From a virus (taxonomy: Duplodnaviria > Heunggongvirae > Uroviricota > Caudoviricetes), in IMG/VR virus record IMGVR_UViG_2703718826_000003, positions 1-9,878 of that record: a DNA stretch of 9,878 nucleotides; one strand, written 5' to 3'. Within the stretch, counting starts at the first letter, position 1. Every line of letters begins with the position of its first letter. The notes under the pieces were generated by a model, which worked only from the letters and a program-made list of their open reading frames with translations, was not told the DNA's origin and did no database searches. The translations under genes and the position numbers were made by a program. Below are positions 341 through 9,878 of this stretch, piece after piece.

Positions 341-914
341 GCGGGGCGACTGGCCACTCAACATCCGCTGCTACTGCTGTATCAACACGATTCAACAATA
401 CCCGATATGTCTTCCATGCAGTCAGTAACGATGCCTCTTCCTCCGTCGCAATATCCAAATCTACGGCATCCTGAAGTGGCGCAATATGCTCACTGGCCAT
501 CTGCATCAGGCTGTTTTTTGTTTCTTCCGCCTTCCGGATCCGGAACAGTTTTTCTGCTTCTGCATCTTTCACCCAGGCTGTGCCGTTCCACTTCTGAAAC
601 TCCCCTTCCGGGGATAACCAGGTGACATTTTCCGGTAATGGGCCAAGTTCAGAAATAAATAACGCGTCGCCGGAAGCCACGTCATAGACGGTTTTTCCCC
701 GATGGTCTTCAACGAGATTCCACGATGCCTCATCACTGTTGAAAACGGCCACGAAGCCAGCCGGAATATCTGGCGGGGCAATATCGGTACTGTTTGCAGG
801 CAGACCTGTATGAGGTGGAATGTATGCATCACCTTCACCAATAAACTCATTGGTTCCAGCCAGTAGATTATAAATTTTTATGGTCCGTGATTGTTCACTC
901 ATTCTGAATGTCAT
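336..914 (-). CDS. tfa: Tail fibre assembly protein (Tfa / Mu-P1 U-type chaperone)
   Basis: 192-aa ORF; N-terminus [48 protein letters not shown] is the typical enterobacterial tail fibre assembly signature as I recall it. Start ATG overlaps the upstream tail-fibre stop (TAATG, minus strand 916-912), indicating translational coupling. Confidence 0.9.
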
Positions 915-3138: not shown

Positions 3139-3265
3139 ATTTTCTGCTCACCATAGTTATTCATAGCAAGCTGCGGATTTTAATTAACAGAAACCAGTGT
3201 GTGTGGAAATCACAAAGTGCATACCGTGCCCCAATGATGTTTTATTGAAAAGCGGGGTTACTTTA
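3139..3265. promoter_or_regulatory. Divergent intergenic control region between the invertase gene and the plus-strand operon (promoters not resolved)
   Basis: 127-bp AT-rich spacer between divergent starts. One weak sigma70-like candidate for the invertase on the minus strand: -35 TTAATT (complement of 3182-3187), 16-bp spacer, -10 TATGAA (complement of 3160-3165). No confident plus-strand promoter identified by eye. Confidence 0.25.
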
Positions 3266-3547
3266 ATGTTTGATTTAACCATATTTTTTATAACCATCCT
3301 TGGAGGCGTGCATTCGTTTCTGAATGGGGTTCGTGAAAAACGTTACGAAGCGTCATGCAGGCAATTGATGGCCGAGTGTATTGCTGCCGTACTTGCAGGC
3401 TTTATAGGCATGTATTTCGCGGAATATAAGGGTATGGATGAAAGTCTTCAGAATTGCGTGACTATTATTTGCAGCATCAATAACAGGCTCATTCTTGAAA
3501 AGTTACAAAGGATTATCGATTCGTACCTCAGTAGCAATGCCTCTTAA
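3266..3547 (+). CDS. Small holin-like membrane protein (two predicted transmembrane helices); possibly LydC-like
   Basis: ORF track gives 3197-3547 from a GTG with no ribosome-binding site. ATG at 3266 is preceded by GGGG 8 nt upstream and gives a 93-aa protein with two hydrophobic segments (LTIFFITILGGVHSFL, IAAVLAGFIGMYFAEY). Start and function uncertain. Confidence 0.5.
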   Translation: MFDLTIFFITILGGVHSFLNGVREKRYEASCRQLMAECIAAVLAGFIGMYFAEYKGMDESLQNCVTIICSINNRLILEKLQRIIDSYLSSNAS

Positions 3548-3614: not shown

Positions 3615-3944
3615 GTGCTTGACACACAGGAATTAGCTCCAGTTGCTATTGCGCTCCTGCTTTCAGTAATTGGTGGGATAGGCACGTTCCTGATGGATGT
3701 CCGAGACGGTCGCCAGTCTGGCAATTTGTTGGGATTGGTTACGGAGATCTTTGTTGCAGTGACAGCTGGCGCGGTGGCGTACCTATTGGGGCAACACGAG
3801 GGCTGGGAGTTATCAATTACGTACTTAATGGTAACGATAGCCAGCAATAACGGTCATGAGGTGATTTCAGGGATGAAACGAGTGAATATCGATAGCATTC
3901 TGAATGTTCTTACAAGTTTGGTGAAAAAGGGAGGCGGGAAATGA
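3615..3944 (+). CDS. lydA: Holin (LydA-like), 109 aa
   Basis: GTG start with strong AGGAGG ribosome-binding site; hydrophobic segments LAPVAIALLLSVIGGIGTFL and LLGLVTEIFVAVTAGAVAYLL, charged C-terminal tail KKGGGK; size and position match P1 lydA as I recall it. Stop overlaps the next start (ATGA). Confidence 0.7.
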   Translation: MLDTQELAPVAIALLLSVIGGIGTFLMDVRDGRQSGNLLGLVTEIFVAVTAGAVAYLLGQHEGWELSITYLMVTIASNNGHEVISGMKRVNIDSILNVLTSLVKKGGGK

Positions 3945-4974: not shown

Positions 4975-6006
4975 ATGGAACAGTTCAATATCAATAAAGG
5001 GGTGACGATCAAGCCTGGGCTTGACGTGCTTCCCCCGCCAGTGACTGATGATGAATATCGCGCATTAATGGCCGGTGAGGACCGCTATCTGATGACGGAA
5101 TCCAACACCCTGGAGGAAATCGAGGCTACGTTCTTCTATGACACGCCGATCCACTGGTGTGCTACGGATTTACTGGAGGCGATTAGTTCTACTCGTTTGC
5201 AGTTACACCGGACCATGCAGGCATTTGTCCGGGCATTGAACCAGAAGCTGAATGGCACCGGAATCTCTGCGGGGAGTGATAAAACGGGGGATGTGGCCCA
5301 GAGCGGCGCGCGCGCGATCGGCGGTGCTGAAATTGGCCGGGCACGGAACGTTAACGGGCTGCCGGTCCTGCCAGCCATTATTCCGCTCAGTGATGGTCAG
5401 ACTATCAGCATTCTGTTTCATAGCCCGACAGCGGAAAACCGGATCACCAATAGCGATACGCTGGTTGCTTTCCAGTTCTTACTGAATAAAAAAGACGTTA
5501 CTCACACCGTTGCTCCGATGAGTGGACGTGATATGACGCTGGCGCAGGTCACCATGAAACTTGCCAACCTTGCAGAGAAAAACTCGGCAAAATTCCAGCG
5601 TGCGCAGAAGAAGAAAAAAGCCCTGGTTGATGAAATAACCCAACTACAGGCTGACAGTGACCAGAAAGAGGATGCCATGAGCGACCTCGCGGATCAGGTG
5701 GCAGCGGTAGAAGGGCAGAAGGTAGATCTGGAGCAGAAAATTAACGCTGTTGCATCGGAAGCGGATTCTCTTTATGAAGAGAATGAGCGTTTGCAGACGG
5801 AGATTGATCAGCTCAATCGCACTGGTGGGCGCGAAACCATTGCTCCTGCGGGGATGACTGGTGGACACTCTCGCGCGATGACGGATCGCCTTGCAAGTAT
5901 CAAAAATCGTATGCATATGAACGGGGAAGTGACGCTCAGTAATGGTGCATCAATGAAGCAATTCATTGAGGACGGTGAAGGGTATATCCAGTTAACTGGG
6001 ATGTGA
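4975..6006 (+). CDS. DarA-like protein (antirestriction / head-morphogenesis family), 343 aa
   Basis: ATG 4975 with AGGA 7 nt upstream, 1 nt after the previous stop. Contains KNSAKFQ followed by a long heptad-like coiled coil (LVDEITQLQADSDQKEDAMSDLADQVAAVEGQKVDLEQKINAV...). Naming by analogy to the P1 darA operon from memory. Confidence 0.6.
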   Translation: MEQFNINKGVTIKPGLDVLPPPVTDDEYRALMAGEDRYLMTESNTLEEIEATFFYDTPIHWCATDLLEAISSTRLQLHRTMQAFVRALNQKLNGTGISAGSDKTGDVAQSGARAIGGAEIGRARNVNGLPVLPAIIPLSDGQTISILFHSPTAENRITNSDTLVAFQFLLNKKDVTHTVAPMSGRDMTLAQVTMKLANLAEKNSAKFQRAQKKKKALVDEITQLQADSDQKEDAMSDLADQVAAVEGQKVDLEQKINAVASEADSLYEENERLQTEIDQLNRTGGRETIAPAGMTGGHSRAMTDRLASIKNRMHMNGEVTLSNGASMKQFIEDGEGYIQLTGM

Positions 6007-7391
6007 AGACGCTGGATAAACAGGTTGATGTAACTCCCGATGAAGATGCTGTTATGCAGAAAATCAGTGGTGGCGTCTCCATCGCCGGGATTAACGACAT
6101 CATTTCCTGTGACGATTTCTACCGTTTCCAGCAGCGCGGCATGATCAAAATCACTGACTCATACGGCGTTCAGACTACAGAGTCAGGCTATAGCATTGAT
6201 TTTGTTGGTACCTATACGGACCCACTGAAGCATGCGGTTTACCCGGATCGCCGTGACGGCGCGCTGAAGTCGTCAATTGCAAAATGGGTGCTTGGTATGA
6301 TGTCGGAAGGGAATAACCGCCAGATCCGTTCGGCAGAAACATTCCTGGTTGAACTGTTTGGCTCCAATTATGGCGATGTAATCGCGTCATACGGAGATAC
6401 GCTATCCCCTGAAGCAATTCAGGAGAAAATAGCGGATGCGATCGCCAGAATGCCGGAAAAAACAAGCCAGGGGGCTACTCGTAACGGGGATTCTGAACTT
6501 GAAGTCACCAATGCCATTTTCGGTACCAATGAGTTCCGGGCGTCAGATTATGAGATCACCACAGCACAGTTTGGCACCATTGGCATTTACAGCAATAAAG
6601 CCGAGATCAAGCAGGCAATGGACGCAGCAAGCGCGCGCATCGCAGCAGAACGGGAAGCCAATCTGAATCATGCAGTCGCCGCACTGACTCAATCGTGGGT
6701 AACAGCAATCAGGGAGGCCGCCACCACAGGGAAAATCACACCTGCAATTGCGGATGTCGTAAACGACGGCTCTAAATTTATGGATGCCTATCAAATGGAT
6801 GCGGTGCAGTTGCCATCAGCCTATGGCCAACTCAGCTATCGCATGACCTACAACCTGGTATCAATGTTTACTGACCTTGCCATCCTTGGGCTGGTGGACC
6901 TTAACGAGGTTACGCCGGAATTACTCAGCATGCGCAAGAATCATGTTGAGATATTGCAGAGAATTAACACGGTTCTTGCCGGGCGCACCGATGAAGAGAA
7001 ACAGGCCGACGCTGATCGGATAAACCTGGCCCTAGGCAACATCACGGAGGAAGAAATTGCCGCCAGAAACGAGAAACAAGAAGAGTTATCATCAATACAG
7101 GGTGATGCCACCAGCATAGCTCAGTCTCTTGGGCTGAATTATCGCGTATCCACCGCCGACCTGAAGATGATGTACGCACCAAAATTCGCCGCTGGCGAGG
7201 TATTTGGGCTTCAGGAAGCCTCCGGCATGAAAGGGGTTCTTTTCCGTGCGAAAGACGCAATCAAGGCGAAATTCGGCGCTCGCTGGTTGCCAGCGAAGGC
7301 GAAGAACAGCGACTTCCCAGGTAACTGGTGGATTATCGAGACAAAACACAACGTGGCGGACGTTCTGGCCGTCATCCAACAATACGCATAA
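6003..7391 (+). CDS. Hypothetical protein of the Dar-like operon, 462 aa (possibly the C-terminal portion or partner of DarA)
   Basis: Long ORF with GTG start overlapping the upstream stop (ATGTGA at 6001-6006); coding-like composition; no motif I can assign. Confidence 0.6.
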   Translation: MKTLDKQVDVTPDEDAVMQKISGGVSIAGINDIISCDDFYRFQQRGMIKITDSYGVQTTESGYSIDFVGTYTDPLKHAVYPDRRDGALKSSIAKWVLGMMSEGNNRQIRSAETFLVELFGSNYGDVIASYGDTLSPEAIQEKIADAIARMPEKTSQGATRNGDSELEVTNAIFGTNEFRASDYEITTAQFGTIGIYSNKAEIKQAMDAASARIAAEREANLNHAVAALTQSWVTAIREAATTGKITPAIADVVNDGSKFMDAYQMDAVQLPSAYGQLSYRMTYNLVSMFTDLAILGLVDLNEVTPELLSMRKNHVEILQRINTVLAGRTDEEKQADADRINLALGNITEEEIAARNEKQEELSSIQGDATSIAQSLGLNYRVSTADLKMMYAPKFAAGEVFGLQEASGMKGVLFRAKDAIKAKFGARWLPAKAKNSDFPGNWWIIETKHNVADVLAVIQQYA

Positions 7392-7396
7392 CAGGA

Positions 7397-7416
7397 GCGC
7401 CCGGTTCGCCGGGCGT
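7397..7416 (+). other. GC-rich hairpin with UUCG tetraloop in the intergenic spacer
   Basis: GCGCCCGG-TTCG-CCGGGCGT, 7-8 bp GC stem closing a UUCG tetraloop, between the stop at 7389-7391 and the ATG at 7425; not followed by a U-tract. Confidence 0.5.
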
Positions 7417-7424
7417 CGCATAAT

Positions 7425-7865
7425 ATGGCCACATTATCTGATACAATAAAACCGAATAAAACATATCTTGAGGCGGTGCTGCGTACGGCGTTGTTAGGAA
7501 AGACAGAAGACGAATACGTTGATTTCTTCCTGTCAGGGCTACGCGGGCGATTACTGAAAAATCCCCGCCTGTACCGCAGCTATGGTCCATACTGGCCGGA
7601 AATTAAAAAATTATTACTGGAGCGCGGTTATGGTAATTTCGGTCGTCTCGTTGACCGTGACGTTCGCAAAATTTACCGTTATGACCGTCCGGCGCTGACG
7701 CTCATAGCCGCGACGCTCTACAGCCAGGAGCGTTTTGATAATGGTCAGATATACTCAGCCTGGCATTTACTGCCAGTGCCTGAAGAGGTTGACGACCAGG
7801 ACTATGAGTTTGAGTCTTACGATTTGGAAGTTGAAGCCTTGGCACAGGCTGGAGAGAAAACTTGA
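7425..7865 (+). CDS. Hypothetical protein, 146 aa, strongly acidic C-terminal tail
   Basis: ATG start after the hairpin; C-terminus PVPEEVDDQDYEFESYDLEVEALAQAGE; stop overlaps the next start (TTGA). Confidence 0.55.
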   Translation: MATLSDTIKPNKTYLEAVLRTALLGKTEDEYVDFFLSGLRGRLLKNPRLYRSYGPYWPEIKKLLLERGYGNFGRLVDRDVRKIYRYDRPALTLIAATLYSQERFDNGQIYSAWHLLPVPEEVDDQDYEFESYDLEVEALAQAGEKT

Positions 7866-8110
7866 AGAAGCGATACTACACAGTAAAGCATGGGACGCTA
7901 CGAGCATTGCAAGAGTTTGCTGATAAGCATAACGTTGAGGTGCGCAGGGAAGGGGGAAGTAAAGCTCTGCGCATGTACCGTCCTGACGGAAAATGGCGGA
8001 CGGTCGTCGATTTCAAAACTAACAGTGTTCCCCAGGGCGTCCGCGACCGGGCATTCGAAGAATGGGAGCAGATCATCATAGATAACGCATTGCTTCTGAA
8101 CGCTGATTAA
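7862..8110 (+). CDS. Hypothetical small basic protein, 82 aa, translationally coupled to the upstream gene
   Basis: TTG start with GGAGAG 7 nt upstream, overlapping the upstream stop (cTTGA); K/R-rich N-terminal half. Confidence 0.45.
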   Translation: MKKRYYTVKHGTLRALQEFADKHNVEVRREGGSKALRMYRPDGKWRTVVDFKTNSVPQGVRDRAFEEWEQIIIDNALLLNAD

Positions 8111-8120
8111 TAATCATTTA

Positions 8121-8141
8121 AAGCCCATATGATATGGGCTT
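8121..8141. repeat. Perfect 10-bp-arm palindrome (AAGCCCATAT g ATATGGGCTT)
   Basis: Lies 11 bp after the 82-aa gene stop and 22 bp before the AT-rich gene; no U-tract on either side, so an operator, RNA-processing or stability hairpin is as likely as a terminator. Confidence 0.45.
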
Positions 8142-8162
8142 AAACAACAGGATCGATATACA

Positions 8163-9203
8163 GTGTTAGTTAAATATATAGGCGAGAGTTATATGGAAAA
8201 ACCTTGGCCGGGCATGCACATTAGAACATCTTGTCTGGAGGATGGTTTCTTTAGAGCAACGCAACCAAAGTATCTTAATGATCCGTCGAGTGAGTCGCGA
8301 CTTCTTCCATTTTTTAATAAATTTTCACCAGCCGATTACGCATGGGCTAGAAATGAATTTAAGAAAATGCAACGAGATCCATCTTATGTCCCATCTATAC
8401 AAGAGTTAGAGTATTATTTAAAACCTTGCGGGAAACGATACGGAGAGGATTTTCCACACTTGTTAATCAATGAAGGTTTTACCTCAATGGATTCATATGA
8501 TGAATCTAAACTCCAAGAAATAGTAACGTACCTTAACGATTATTTAGTAGAAGCCGTAAGCTGTCATCTTGGTGTATTCTCTCTATCAAAAAGTGATTGC
8601 AATCTACACATGTGGACTCATTATGCATCGATAGGAAAGGGGTTTGCTGTAGTTTTCGATGAAACACACGATTTTTTCAAAATATATAGGCCGTGTGATG
8701 TTAGTTATAATCCAGAAGATAGAGCATCTGTAACCTATTATAAAGGCGCTGTGCGATTTAATGGCTATCCTGCGCCATCGAGGAATATAGATATAAAGAA
8801 TAAAGATAATACATTGCATGGGATCTTAAATCGAGATTCAGTTCGCGAGCTTTTTATTAATAGGCTCCTTTATACAAAAGGTGAAGAGTGGCTTCCTGAA
8901 AATGAAAGTAGAATTATTTTTCCTTTAGCTGATTGCGAGAGAAAGATAGGAAGTATTGTCTCTCCATCGATTGATGATTGCCTATTAAATGAGTATCCTG
9001 ATGTTTTTCATGACTATCATGAAATTAACTTAAAGAAAATTCCTTTTTCTGCATTCAAGCAAATTACCTTAGGGTATAACATGACTGAAAAAGATAAAAA
9101 TATAATTTTAGATAAAGTTAGTTCGAATAAAGAATTGTCTCACGTCAACGTATTATATTCAAAACTTGATATATACGGAAAGGTTGTGGTTAAGCCCATG
9201 TAA
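8163..9203 (+). CDS. AT-rich cargo gene, 346-aa protein with DUF2971-like motifs; function unknown
   Basis: GC content visibly lower than flanking phage genes. Motifs LVKYIG...FRATQPKYLNDPSSE and SCHLGVFSLS...NLHMWTHYASIGKGFAVVFDE resemble the DUF2971 family as I recall it (N-terminal LYKY, NDP-E, MW-HYA). Start is GTG 8163 or ATG 8193. Confidence 0.6.
   Translation: MLVKYIGESYMEKPWPGMHIRTSCLEDGFFRATQPKYLNDPSSESRLLPFFNKFSPADYAWARNEFKKMQRDPSYVPSIQELEYYLKPCGKRYGEDFPHLLINEGFTSMDSYDESKLQEIVTYLNDYLVEAVSCHLGVFSLSKSDCNLHMWTHYASIGKGFAVVFDETHDFFKIYRPCDVSYNPEDRASVTYYKGAVRFNGYPAPSRNIDIKNKDNTLHGILNRDSVRELFINRLLYTKGEEWLPENESRIIFPLADCERKIGSIVSPSIDDCLLNEYPDVFHDYHEINLKKIPFSAFKQITLGYNMTEKDKNIILDKVSSNKELSHVNVLYSKLDIYGKVVVKPM

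Positions 9204-9493: not shown

Positions 9494-9878
<385 letters not shown>

What the first reader, a model, noticed from the sequence alone, without database searches (positions are those of the whole stretch)
7425..8110. Translationally coupled 146-aa acidic-tailed and 82-aa basic protein pair at the operon end
The two small genes overlap by 4 bp (TTGA), are preceded by a very stable UUCG hairpin, and encode proteins of opposite charge character: a long acidic C-terminal tail on the first and a K/R-rich N-terminal half on the second. The arrangement is reminiscent of toxin-antitoxin, chaperone-client or DNA-mimic antirestriction modules, but I recognise no family for either protein.
Basis: inference. 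Interest (0 to 1): 0.45.

Follow-up and report, generated by a model that had tools for sequence, protein, structure and literature searches.

The report
Phage P1 ulx and lxc genes
The two small overlapping genes are the already characterised phage P1 genes ulx, a capsid protein that helps load the anti-restriction protein DarB, and lxc/bof, the co-repressor of the C1 repressor; here they sit in a decayed P1-like remnant, so the finding is ordinary.

Summary
ORFs 7425-7865 (146 aa, acidic tail) and 7862-8110 (82 aa, TTG start, basic N-terminus) overlap by TTGA, and a GC-rich UUCG hairpin precedes them. They are not an unknown module. They are ulx and lxc (bof) of phage P1: the nucleotides are 97-99% identical to P1, P7, SJ46 and RCS47. 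Lxc is identical in protein to P1 Lxc. Ulx is identical to P7 Ulx and 98.6% identical to P1 Ulx.

According to the literature, Ulx is a virion head protein that aids DarB incorporation, as part of the Dar anti-restriction system. [quoted passage not shown] The deeply conserved partner of ulx is the upstream darB, not lxc: distant Ulx homologues follow DarB-like genes and have no lxc. I found no support for the toxin-antitoxin or DNA-mimic readings.

Two small extras emerged:
- The hairpin lies exactly between the Shine-Dalgarno sequence and the ulx AUG. Its stem shows compensatory changes across lineages, which suggests a T4 gene 25/38-style split ribosome-binding site.
- Lxc-like ORFs follow ulx in D6-like prophages, where Lxc had been reported absent.

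The window is an IS-riddled P1 remnant in E. coli NCTC9040 with darA and darB truncated.

The parts
6003..7391 (+). C-terminal 462-codon remnant of darB (N-terminus deleted). In intact P1 this is the end of the 2255-aa DarB gene that precedes ulx.
   Evidence: Matches PHROG 1685 positions 1805-2278 of 2278 and PHROG 21007. Aligns to the P1 darB 3' end. RefSeq annotates it as a helicase pseudogene missing its N-terminus.
7393..7397 (+). Shine-Dalgarno sequence AGGAG for ulx, 27 nt upstream of the ATG in the linear sequence.
   Evidence: Read directly from the sequence. No other purine-rich Shine-Dalgarno sequence lies within 5-12 nt of the ATG. A homologous SD abuts the hairpin in JK004, L096, L103, L011, D6 and L005.
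7397..7416 (+). GC-rich hairpin between the SD and the ulx start codon: 7 G-C pairs plus a G-U pair, UUCG loop. Proposed to bring the SD to about 9 nt from the AUG (split ribosome-binding site).
   Evidence: Folding gives -17 to -18 kcal/mol. Eight distinct versions in relatives keep all 56 stem cells paired. Five of the 7 pairs show changes on both sides, and loop sequences differ between most versions.
7425..7865 (+). ulx: 146 aa, helical core with a disordered acidic C-terminal tail. Dar-system accessory protein that aids DarB incorporation into the P1 head.
   Evidence: Protein 100% identical to Ulx/OlxA of P7, SJ46 and RCS47, and 98.6% identical to P1 Ulx. PHROG 1629 'Ulx-like anti-restriction', E 4.5e-66. 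Annotated ulx in NC_005856. AF2 model: helices 4-105, tail pLDDT about 40. Function taken from PMC9024508 Table 1, PMC12810830 and PMC10695390.
7468..7494 (+). Position of the predicted sigma-70 promoter P3lxc of the P1 annotation. In the window its -10 element is CGTTGT instead of CATTGT.
   Evidence: P1 annotation transferred by alignment. Not found by the consensus promoter scan.
7611..7639 (+). Position of the predicted sigma-70 promoter P2lxc (TTATTA-17-TAATTT), identical to P1.
   Evidence: This is a prediction in the P1 record; I did not verify it.
7789..7817 (+). Position of the predicted sigma-70 promoter P1lxc (TTGACG-17-GAGTCT), identical to P1.
   Evidence: This is a prediction in the P1 record; I did not verify it.
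7851..7856 (+). Shine-Dalgarno sequence GGAGAG for lxc, inside the 3' end of ulx, 5 nt from the TTG.
   Evidence: The region is predicted to be unstructured.
7862..8110 (+). lxc (= bof): 82 aa, TTG start overlapping the ulx stop (TTGA). Co-repressor/modulator of the C1 repressor.
   Evidence: Protein identical to P1 Lxc apart from tblastn reading the TTG initiator as Leu. PHROG 2160, E 7.8e-57. Annotated lxc, 'modulator of C1 action', in NC_005856. AF2 model pLDDT 83, alpha-beta3-alpha. Function taken from PMC8546580, citing Velleman et al. 1990 and 1992 and Schaefer & Hays 1990.
8121..8141 (.). 9-bp hairpin just after the lxc stop, with no U-tract on the + strand. Homology with P1 ends at the lxc stop codon.
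   Evidence: Fold -14.9 kcal/mol, z = -3.3. Alignment with P1 and MH422554. Not called as a terminator.

Best explanation
The pair is ulx and lxc (bof) of a P1-like phage-plasmid. These are two adjacent genes with different, already described functions, not a two-protein module.

Ulx (from the literature). Ulx is packaged into the phage head and is needed for efficient incorporation of the 250-kDa DarB methyltransferase/helicase. DarB is injected with the DNA and protects it in cis from EcoB/EcoK type I restriction.

Ulx (inferred here). It has a helical core of about 100 residues and a disordered acidic tail with a conserved aromatic/acidic motif. I infer that it acts as an adaptor between DarB and the DarA/Hdf-based internal head scaffold.

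Lxc (from the literature). Lxc joins C1 repressor on its operators in a ternary complex, which strengthens repression and blocks the antirepressor Coi.

lxc expression (inferred). The TTG start overlapping the ulx stop, with a Shine-Dalgarno sequence 5 nt upstream, allows lxc to be translated by ribosomes coming off ulx. Three predicted promoters inside ulx allow expression independent of ulx.

ulx translation (inferred). It probably depends on a split ribosome-binding site. The hairpin between AGGAG and the AUG shortens the effective spacing from 27 nt to about 9 nt.

This copy. The element is a decayed remnant. darB lacks its first ~1800 codons and darA its C-terminal half, so Ulx has lost its client and is probably a relic.
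For: Identity:
- The nucleotides are 97-99% identical to P1, P7, SJ46, RCS47 and others, over regions annotated Ulx and Lxc/modulator protein/bof.
- The proteins are 98.6-100% identical to the P1 and P7 proteins.
- PHROG 1629 and PHROG 2160 hits.

Function (literature):
- Ulx was detected in purified P1 virions and is listed as 'aids DarB localization' (PMC9024508, Table 1).
- Ulx is one of six Dar proteins, incorporated after DarA/Hdf, and is needed against EcoB/EcoK (PMC12810830; PMC12707154).
[quoted passage not shown] Its over-expression raises the frequency of lysogeny (PMC8546580).

Pairing logic:
- darB-ulx-lxc-like synteny holds in JK004, D6 and five further lineages.
- Ulx homologues at 35-42% identity in Desulfovibrio, Marinobacterium and Bacteroidales MAGs follow a DarB-like helicase C-terminus (E 2e-6). 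In two of these loci (L013, L015) a portal-like ORF of about 550 aa follows directly, and none of them has a recognisable lxc.

TTG start:
- It is the first possible start after the in-frame stop at 7832 and has a good SD.
- Relatives have GTG or ATG at the homologous start position.
- Residues 9-31, upstream of the first internal ATG, are conserved.

Split ribosome-binding site:
- Geometry and stem covariation.
- Lineages without the hairpin have the SD at normal spacing.
- Precedent in T4 genes 38 and 25 (PMC3014915).

Decay of this copy.
Against: - The primary papers on Ulx (Piya et al. 2017) and Bof (Velleman 1990, 1992; Schaefer & Hays 1990) could not be read here. Their content is taken from papers that cite them and from the GenBank annotation.
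- The adaptor role of the Ulx tail is inference. The AF2 tail is low-confidence, and the fold has no PDB match.
- Translational coupling is inferred from geometry only. In two lineages the genes are separated by 2 or 10 nt and lxc has its own SD. P1 carries predicted internal promoters, so coupling is not obligatory.
- The hairpin's energy is not an outlier against shuffles. The D6 and L005 hairpins could be independent inventions rather than covarying homologues.
- Whether a c1 gene survives in this remnant was not determined.
Confidence: 0.9

Rival explanations
1. The two genes form a type II toxin-antitoxin pair: a small basic toxin or DNA-binding protein plus an acidic-tailed antitoxin, translationally coupled.
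Confidence: 0.02
2. Ulx and Lxc bind each other, as chaperone-client or via acidic tail and basic N-terminus, so that the conserved adjacency reflects a shared function. Late-made Lxc might, for example, be held or delivered by Ulx.
For: A tight ulx-lxc-like juxtaposition (overlap of 8, 4 or 1 nt, or a gap of 2 or 10 nt) persists down to 14-27% Lxc identity in D6-like and other lineages. The charges are complementary.
Against: Lxc is not listed among the proteins detected in the P1 virion proteome, whereas Ulx is (PMC9024508). The two proteins have documented, unrelated partners (DarB and C1). Gene order is generally conserved among these phage-plasmids, so synteny alone is weak evidence. The deeper Ulx lineages lack Lxc. 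No complex prediction could be run.
Confidence: 0.06
3. Ulx is itself a DNA-mimic anti-restriction protein, like Ocr or ArdA, that uses its acidic tail to inhibit type I enzymes directly.
For: The acidic C-terminal tail (net -9 over residues 121-140) is conserved, with a Y..S.D.E.E pattern across the family. Loss of ulx sensitises P1 to EcoB/EcoK (PMC12810830).
Against: Only about 25 residues are acidic and the overall pI is 5.1. The tail is predicted disordered, not a rigid DNA-like surface. Citing papers attribute the ulx phenotype to failure to incorporate DarB (PMC9024508; PMC10695390). There is no sequence or fold match to Ocr or ArdA.
Confidence: 0.05
4. The hairpin before ulx is not a translational element. 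It is instead an mRNA 3'-end stabiliser, a processing site or a weak terminator that separates darB from ulx-lxc expression.
For: It lies 6 nt after the darB stop codon. GC-rich stem-loops commonly protect 3' ends. Several lineages lack it.
Against: No U-tract follows it, and the terminator scan does not call it. The P1 record annotates no terminator there. In every lineage that has it, the SD abuts its 5' side and the AUG lies 7-9 nt from its 3' side. No alternative SD is available, whereas lineages without it have a normally spaced SD.
Confidence: 0.3

Closest known systems
Ulx of bacteriophage P1 (P7 OlxA); PHROG 1629 'Ulx-like anti-restriction'
   Same: The 146-aa protein is 100% identical to the P7, SJ46 and RCS47 proteins and 98.6% identical to P1 Ulx. 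It has the same position directly after darB, the same hairpin and the same start.
   Different: In this window darB is reduced to its last 462 codons. DarA is truncated, and the portal and protease genes are deleted. The DarB-loading function therefore cannot operate here.
Lxc (Bof) of bacteriophage P1, the ImmT co-repressor of C1; PHROG 2160
   Same: Identical 82-aa sequence, the same TTG start overlapping the ulx stop, and the same predicted upstream promoters P1lxc and P2lxc.
   Different: The -10 element of P3lxc carries an A-to-G change. Downstream, mod/res of P1 is replaced by a DUF2971 gene. Presence of the C1 partner in this remnant was not checked.
Split translation-initiation regions of T4 genes 38 and 25 (SD-hairpin-AUG)
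   Same: A stable hairpin sits between the SD and the AUG. The linear spacing of 27 nt is reduced to about 9 nt; in T4 gene 25 it goes from 27 to 11, and in gene 38 from 22 to 5 (PMC3014915). The hairpin is present in close relatives and absent in more distant ones, which have ordinary spacing.
   Different: There is no sequence relationship and no experimental test for ulx. The stem is shorter (7-8 bp) and purely G-C.
Type II toxin-antitoxin modules and Ocr/ArdA DNA mimics
   Same: Small overlapping genes of opposite charge, and an acidic segment in an anti-restriction context.
   Different: No profile or fold match, no toxicity in published data, and only the tail is acidic.

Membership tests
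P1 Ulx (Dar accessory) | Sequence membership in the Ulx family | tested here: met
   98.6-100% protein identity to P1 and P7 Ulx. PHROG 1629, E 4.5e-66, over residues 3-142.
P1 Ulx (Dar accessory) | Encoded immediately downstream of darB | tested here: met
   The darB 3' end lies at 6003-7391, followed by ulx at 7425. The same order is seen in 12 or more lineages. Here darB is a truncated pseudogene.
P1 Ulx (Dar accessory) | Protein is packaged in the head and is required for DarB incorporation and EcoB/EcoK protection | not testable with these tools
   Known for P1 from PMC9024508 and PMC12810830 (both citing Piya 2017). It is not demonstrable from sequence, and is moot here because DarB is truncated.
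P1 Lxc/Bof (C1 co-repressor) | Sequence identity, 82 aa, with a non-ATG start overlapping the ulx stop | tested here: met
   Identical to P1 Lxc. TTG at 7862 with an SD 5 nt upstream, first start after the in-frame stop. PHROG 2160 covers 1-82 of 82.
P1 Lxc/Bof (C1 co-repressor) | [quoted passage not shown] | not testable with these tools
   Literature only (PMC8546580, refs 32-34). The AF2 model gives an alpha-beta3-alpha fold with no informative structural neighbour.
P1 Lxc/Bof (C1 co-repressor) | The partner gene c1 is present in the same element | not tested
   c1 occurs in about 700 E. coli records. I did not establish whether the NCTC9040 remnant retains it.
Type II toxin-antitoxin module | Either protein matches a known toxin or antitoxin family | tested here: not met
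Type II toxin-antitoxin module | One partner is toxic alone and is neutralised by the other | not testable with these tools
   Published data argue against it. Both genes are non-essential under CRISPRi knock-down (PMC10695390), and Lxc over-expression is tolerated (PMC8546580).
DNA-mimic anti-restriction proteins (Ocr/ArdA type) | Globally acidic protein with a structured DNA-like surface | tested here: not met
   pI 5.13, with charge concentrated in residues 119-137. The tail is predicted disordered. No fold or sequence match.
Split (structure-bridged) ribosome-binding site, T4 gene 25/38 type | SD too far from the AUG in the linear sequence, with an intervening hairpin restoring 5-11 nt spacing | tested here: met
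   AGGAG 7393-7397, hairpin 7398-7415, then 9 nt to ATG 7425. The same geometry (7-9 nt) holds in JK004, L096, L103, L011, D6 and L005.
Split (structure-bridged) ribosome-binding site, T4 gene 25/38 type | Stem maintained by compensatory substitutions | tested here: met
   8 distinct versions and 7 pairs give 56 of 56 standard pairs. Five pairs change on both sides, and the 8 versions carry 7 different loop sequences. The sample is small, and the D6 and L005 hairpins may be independent.
Split (structure-bridged) ribosome-binding site, T4 gene 25/38 type | Stem-destabilising mutations reduce translation | not testable with these tools
   Needs reporter fusions.

The most novel reading that the evidence does not exclude
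Two things that the papers I searched do not describe remain possible.

(1) ulx of P1-like and D6-like phage-plasmids may be translated through a structure-bridged 'split' ribosome-binding site of the T4 gene 25/38 kind.

(2) The Lxc co-repressor family may extend, at 14-27% identity, to the small ORF that always follows ulx in D6-like and related plasmid prophages, where Lxc was reported absent (PMC6799933). The ImmT locus darB-ulx-lxc would then be an ancient linked unit.

A bolder version is that this persistent coupling reflects a functional tie between Dar loading and immunity control.
Probability: 0.45. Interest if true: 0.3.

Novelty: already known. Interest (0 to 1): 0.1.

Why it matters
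It matters little as a discovery. Both genes were named and studied in phage P1 decades ago (bof/lxc) or in 2017 (ulx), and this copy sits in a degraded prophage remnant.

The practical lessons are about annotation:
- RefSeq labels both genes 'hypothetical protein' in the matching E. coli records.
- Gene callers frequently miss the TTG start of lxc.
- Neither family has a Pfam or NCBIfam model.

The side observations could interest P1 specialists but need experiments. They are a conserved SD-hairpin-AUG arrangement in front of ulx, and Lxc-like ORFs in D6-like prophages.

Tried and rejected
- Pfam, NCBIfam and PADLOC scans gave nothing for either protein.
- PDB sequence searches gave nothing meaningful.
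- The Foldseek search of the Ulx model against the PDB had no hit below E = 3.9.
- The afdb50 library was unavailable.
- BLASTP of Lxc against D6 orf13 found nothing. Only the profile-profile comparison linked them.
- MAFFT would not keep the hairpin stems in register, so I counted the pairs by script instead.
- The consensus promoter scan does not recover the P1-annotated lxc promoters. They remain predictions.
- Rfam has no family at the hairpin.
- The primary papers (Lobocka 2004; Piya 2017; Schaefer & Hays 1990) are not held.
- tblastn with P1 C1 did not detect a homologue in D6, although PMC6799933 reports one in a D6-like prophage.
- I considered the toxin-antitoxin and DNA-mimic readings and rejected them; see the rival explanations.

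Full report
**Observation**

The window contains the two ORFs as described: 7425-7865 (+, ATG, 146 aa) and 7862-8110 (+, TTG, 82 aa). The TGA stop of the first overlaps the TTG of the second, giving TTGA.

The first protein has pI 5.13, with its negative charge concentrated near the C-terminus (residues 121-140, net -9). The second has pI 9.62, with a basic N-terminal half (residues 1-40, net +7).

The hairpin is real: CGCCCGG-UUCG-CCGGGCG at 7398-7415, extended by a G7397-U7416 wobble pair, at about -17 to -18 kcal/mol. In its GC-rich context it is not an energetic outlier, with z = -1.4.

TTG 7862 is the first possible start after an in-frame TGA at 7832. It is preceded by GGAGAG at a 5-nt spacing, in an unstructured stretch.

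'Operon end' is not established. A same-strand DUF2971 gene starts about 53 nt after lxc, and only a hairpin without a U-tract lies between them.

**Identity**

Megablast of 7300-8200 finds 18 phage records at 96.8-99% identity: P1, P7, SJ46, RCS47, phi456, JL22 and others. The matched features are annotated Ulx (OlxA), Lxc/modulator protein/bof, and DarB. In the reference P1 record the order is darB - ulx - lxc, with the same 4-bp overlap.

By tblastn the 146-aa protein is 100% identical to the P7, SJ46 and RCS47 proteins and 98.6% identical to P1 Ulx. The 82-aa protein is identical to P1 Lxc; the single apparent mismatch is the TTG initiator being read as Leu.

PHROGs assigns them to phrog_1629 'Ulx-like anti-restriction' (E 4.5e-66) and phrog_2160 (E 7.8e-57). 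Pfam, NCBIfam and PADLOC have no model for either. That explains why they look like orphans, and why RefSeq calls them 'hypothetical protein' in the matching E. coli records.

**What the genes do (literature)**

Ulx:
- It was detected by mass spectrometry in purified P1 virions and is listed as 'aids DarB localization' (PMC9024508, Table 1).
[quoted passage not shown] Together with DarB and DdrB it is tied to protection against EcoB/EcoK (PMC12810830; PMC12707154).

Lxc:
- Its name stands for 'lowers expression of c1', and it was formerly called Bof.
- It increases C1 affinity for its operators by forming a ternary complex, and it prevents Coi from dissociating C1.
- Over-expressing it raises the frequency of lysogeny, and its promoters are considered constitutive (PMC8546580; refs 32-34 there).

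Both genes score as non-essential in a P1 CRISPRi screen (PMC10695390). I could not read the primary papers.

**Is it a pair?**

The synteny darB - ulx - small ORF is conserved well beyond P1. I found it in Cronobacter phage JK004, phage D6, a Pantoea element, 'Enterobacteriaceae bacterium B14', and Enterobacter/E. coli D6-like plasmids. Across these, the two genes overlap by 8, 4 or 1 nt, or are separated by 2 or 10 nt.

BLASTP does not link P1 Lxc to the D6-type small proteins, but a profile-profile comparison does: hhalign 96.4%, E 1.2e-9 over 74 columns. This is a small addition to the record, because a study of D6-like prophages reported a C1 homologue but 'Lxc ... was not detected' (PMC6799933).

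At the homologous start position the codon is TTG, GTG or ATG in different lineages. Residues upstream of the first internal ATG are conserved. Both observations support the annotated TTG start.

The deeper partner of ulx, however, is darB:
- The Ulx family has 285 representatives at 50% clustering.
- Members at 35-42% identity in Desulfovibrio, Marinobacterium and Bacteroidales MAGs follow a large helicase whose C-terminus resembles that of DarB (E 2e-6).
- In two of these loci (L013, L015) a portal-like ORF of about 550 aa follows directly. None of them has an lxc-like ORF.
- Lxc is not listed among the proteins detected in the P1 virion proteome.

Ulx therefore belongs functionally with DarB, and lxc is an immunity gene that rides at the end of the same transcription unit in the P1/D6 group.

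**Structures**

The AF2 model of Ulx (12-sequence alignment) has a confident helical core at residues about 8-105. Residues 107-146 are low-confidence and probably disordered, with a short helix at 134-144. The tail carries family-invariant residues Y127, S131, D133, E135 and E137. Foldseek finds no PDB neighbour.

Neither model supports a toxin, antitoxin or DNA-mimic assignment. The idea that the Ulx tail is the DarB- or scaffold-binding element is my inference.

**The hairpin**

Its position is informative. The only Shine-Dalgarno sequence for ulx (AGGAG, 7393-7397) abuts the 5' side of the stem, and the AUG lies 9 nt from the 3' side. The linear spacing is 27 nt, and 9 nt with the stem closed.

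The same arrangement, with 7-9 nt after the stem, occurs in JK004, L096, L103, the Pantoea element, D6 and L005. Lineages without a hairpin have the SD at normal spacing.

Across the eight distinct versions:
- All 56 stem positions are standard pairs.
- Five of the seven pairs show changes on both sides.
- The 8 versions carry 7 different loop sequences: UUCG (in two versions), UUAG, AUGU, CGCG, GAAG, AACC, AGUC. JK004, which was not counted, has CGGAG.

The UUCG loop itself is therefore not the conserved feature; the stem is.

This matches the 'split' translation-initiation regions of T4 genes 38 (22 to 5 nt) and 25 (27 to 11 nt) (PMC3014915). I rate this reading at about 0.55, against about 0.3 for a 3'-end stabiliser or processing role. 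The sample is small, and the D6 and L005 hairpins may be independent inventions.

**Context of this copy**

The window is 100% identical to E. coli NCTC9040 chromosome NZ_LR134247.1, positions 2148412-2157970. There it is part of an IS1/IS5/IS30/IS66-riddled P1-like remnant carrying repA and parAB.

Relative to P1, about 17 kb is missing between darA codon ~341 and the last 462 codons of darB. The two sides are joined at a TAAC microhomology near 5993-5997. The same junction occurs in plasmids CP010179 and LT883139. The deletion removes the darA C-terminus, ddrA, ddrB, pro, prt, most of darB, and its predicted promoter PdarB.

In this element Ulx therefore has no client and no capsid. Its perfect conservation reflects how recent the decay is, not selection. 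lxc could still act if c1 is present, which I did not determine.

Homology with P1 ends at the lxc stop codon. P1 mod/res is replaced by a DUF2971 gene that matches the PADLOC candidate defence system PDC-S31.

**Verdict**

The interpretation as an unknown two-protein module is not. These are known genes, and interest is low. The split-RBS hypothesis and the Lxc homologues in D6-like prophages are modest leads.

Noticed in passing
window 4975-7391, junction about 5993-5997: darA is cut after about 341 codons and joined to the last 462 codons of darB at a TAAC microhomology. About 17 kb of P1 is deleted, including the darA C-terminus, ddrA, ddrB, pro, prt and most of darB. The same junction occurs in E. 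coli plasmids CP010179 and LT883139 and in the NCTC9040 chromosome.
   Followed up: yes
window 8163-9203 (+): A 346-aa DUF2971 protein (Pfam E 4e-6) that matches the PADLOC candidate defence family PDC-S31 (E 5e-16). It occupies the position where P1 has the EcoP1I mod/res genes. Homology with P1 stops exactly at the lxc stop codon.
   Followed up: partly
L003 4438-4698 (phage D6 orf13); also L005, L006, L007, L098, L100: The small ORF that directly follows ulx in D6-like and related plasmid prophages is a remote Lxc homologue (hhalign 96.4%, E 1.2e-9). A published analysis of D6-like prophages reported that Lxc was not detected (PMC6799933).
   Followed up: partly
L013 1977-2432, L014 1998-2423, L015 237-677: Ulx homologues at 35-42% identity, each with an acidic tail, occur in Desulfovibrio, Marinobacterium and Bacteroidales MAG contigs. 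Where the upstream sequence is available (L013, L014) they follow a DarB-like helicase gene; in L013 and L015 a portal-like ORF follows directly. None has an lxc. The family has 285 representatives at 50% clustering and no Pfam model.
   Followed up: partly
window 373-571 (-): Rfam family IS009 (RF02111) matches at 192.7 bits inside the tail-fibre-assembly gene region.
   Followed up: no
window 7862-8110; proteins P0003-P0015: Public gene calls for lxc are often wrong. Some are truncated to 45-72 aa from internal starts. Others are extended or frame-shifted fusions of 92-113 aa. The likely cause is the TTG start overlapping ulx.
   Followed up: partly
window 7489-7494: The -10 element of the P1-annotated promoter P3lxc is CGTTGT here, against CATTGT in P1. 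None of the three annotated lxc promoters is recovered by the consensus scan.
   Followed up: partly
window 9494-9878: An IS5-family transposase remnant, annotated as a pseudogene with an internal stop in NCTC9040. The surrounding P1-like remnant is riddled with IS1, IS5, IS30 and IS66 copies and is assembled in the chromosome record.
   Followed up: partly
window 3197-3547 and 3615-3944 (+): Two consecutive LydA-type holin-family ORFs (Pfam PF16083; PHROG 1527) precede lydB, so the holin gene appears duplicated upstream of the darA operon.
   Followed up: no
protein clusters P0016, P0017, P0019 and others: NCBI names Ulx 'peptide-binding protein', although no NCBIfam model matches it. The origin of the name is unclear.
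   Followed up: no
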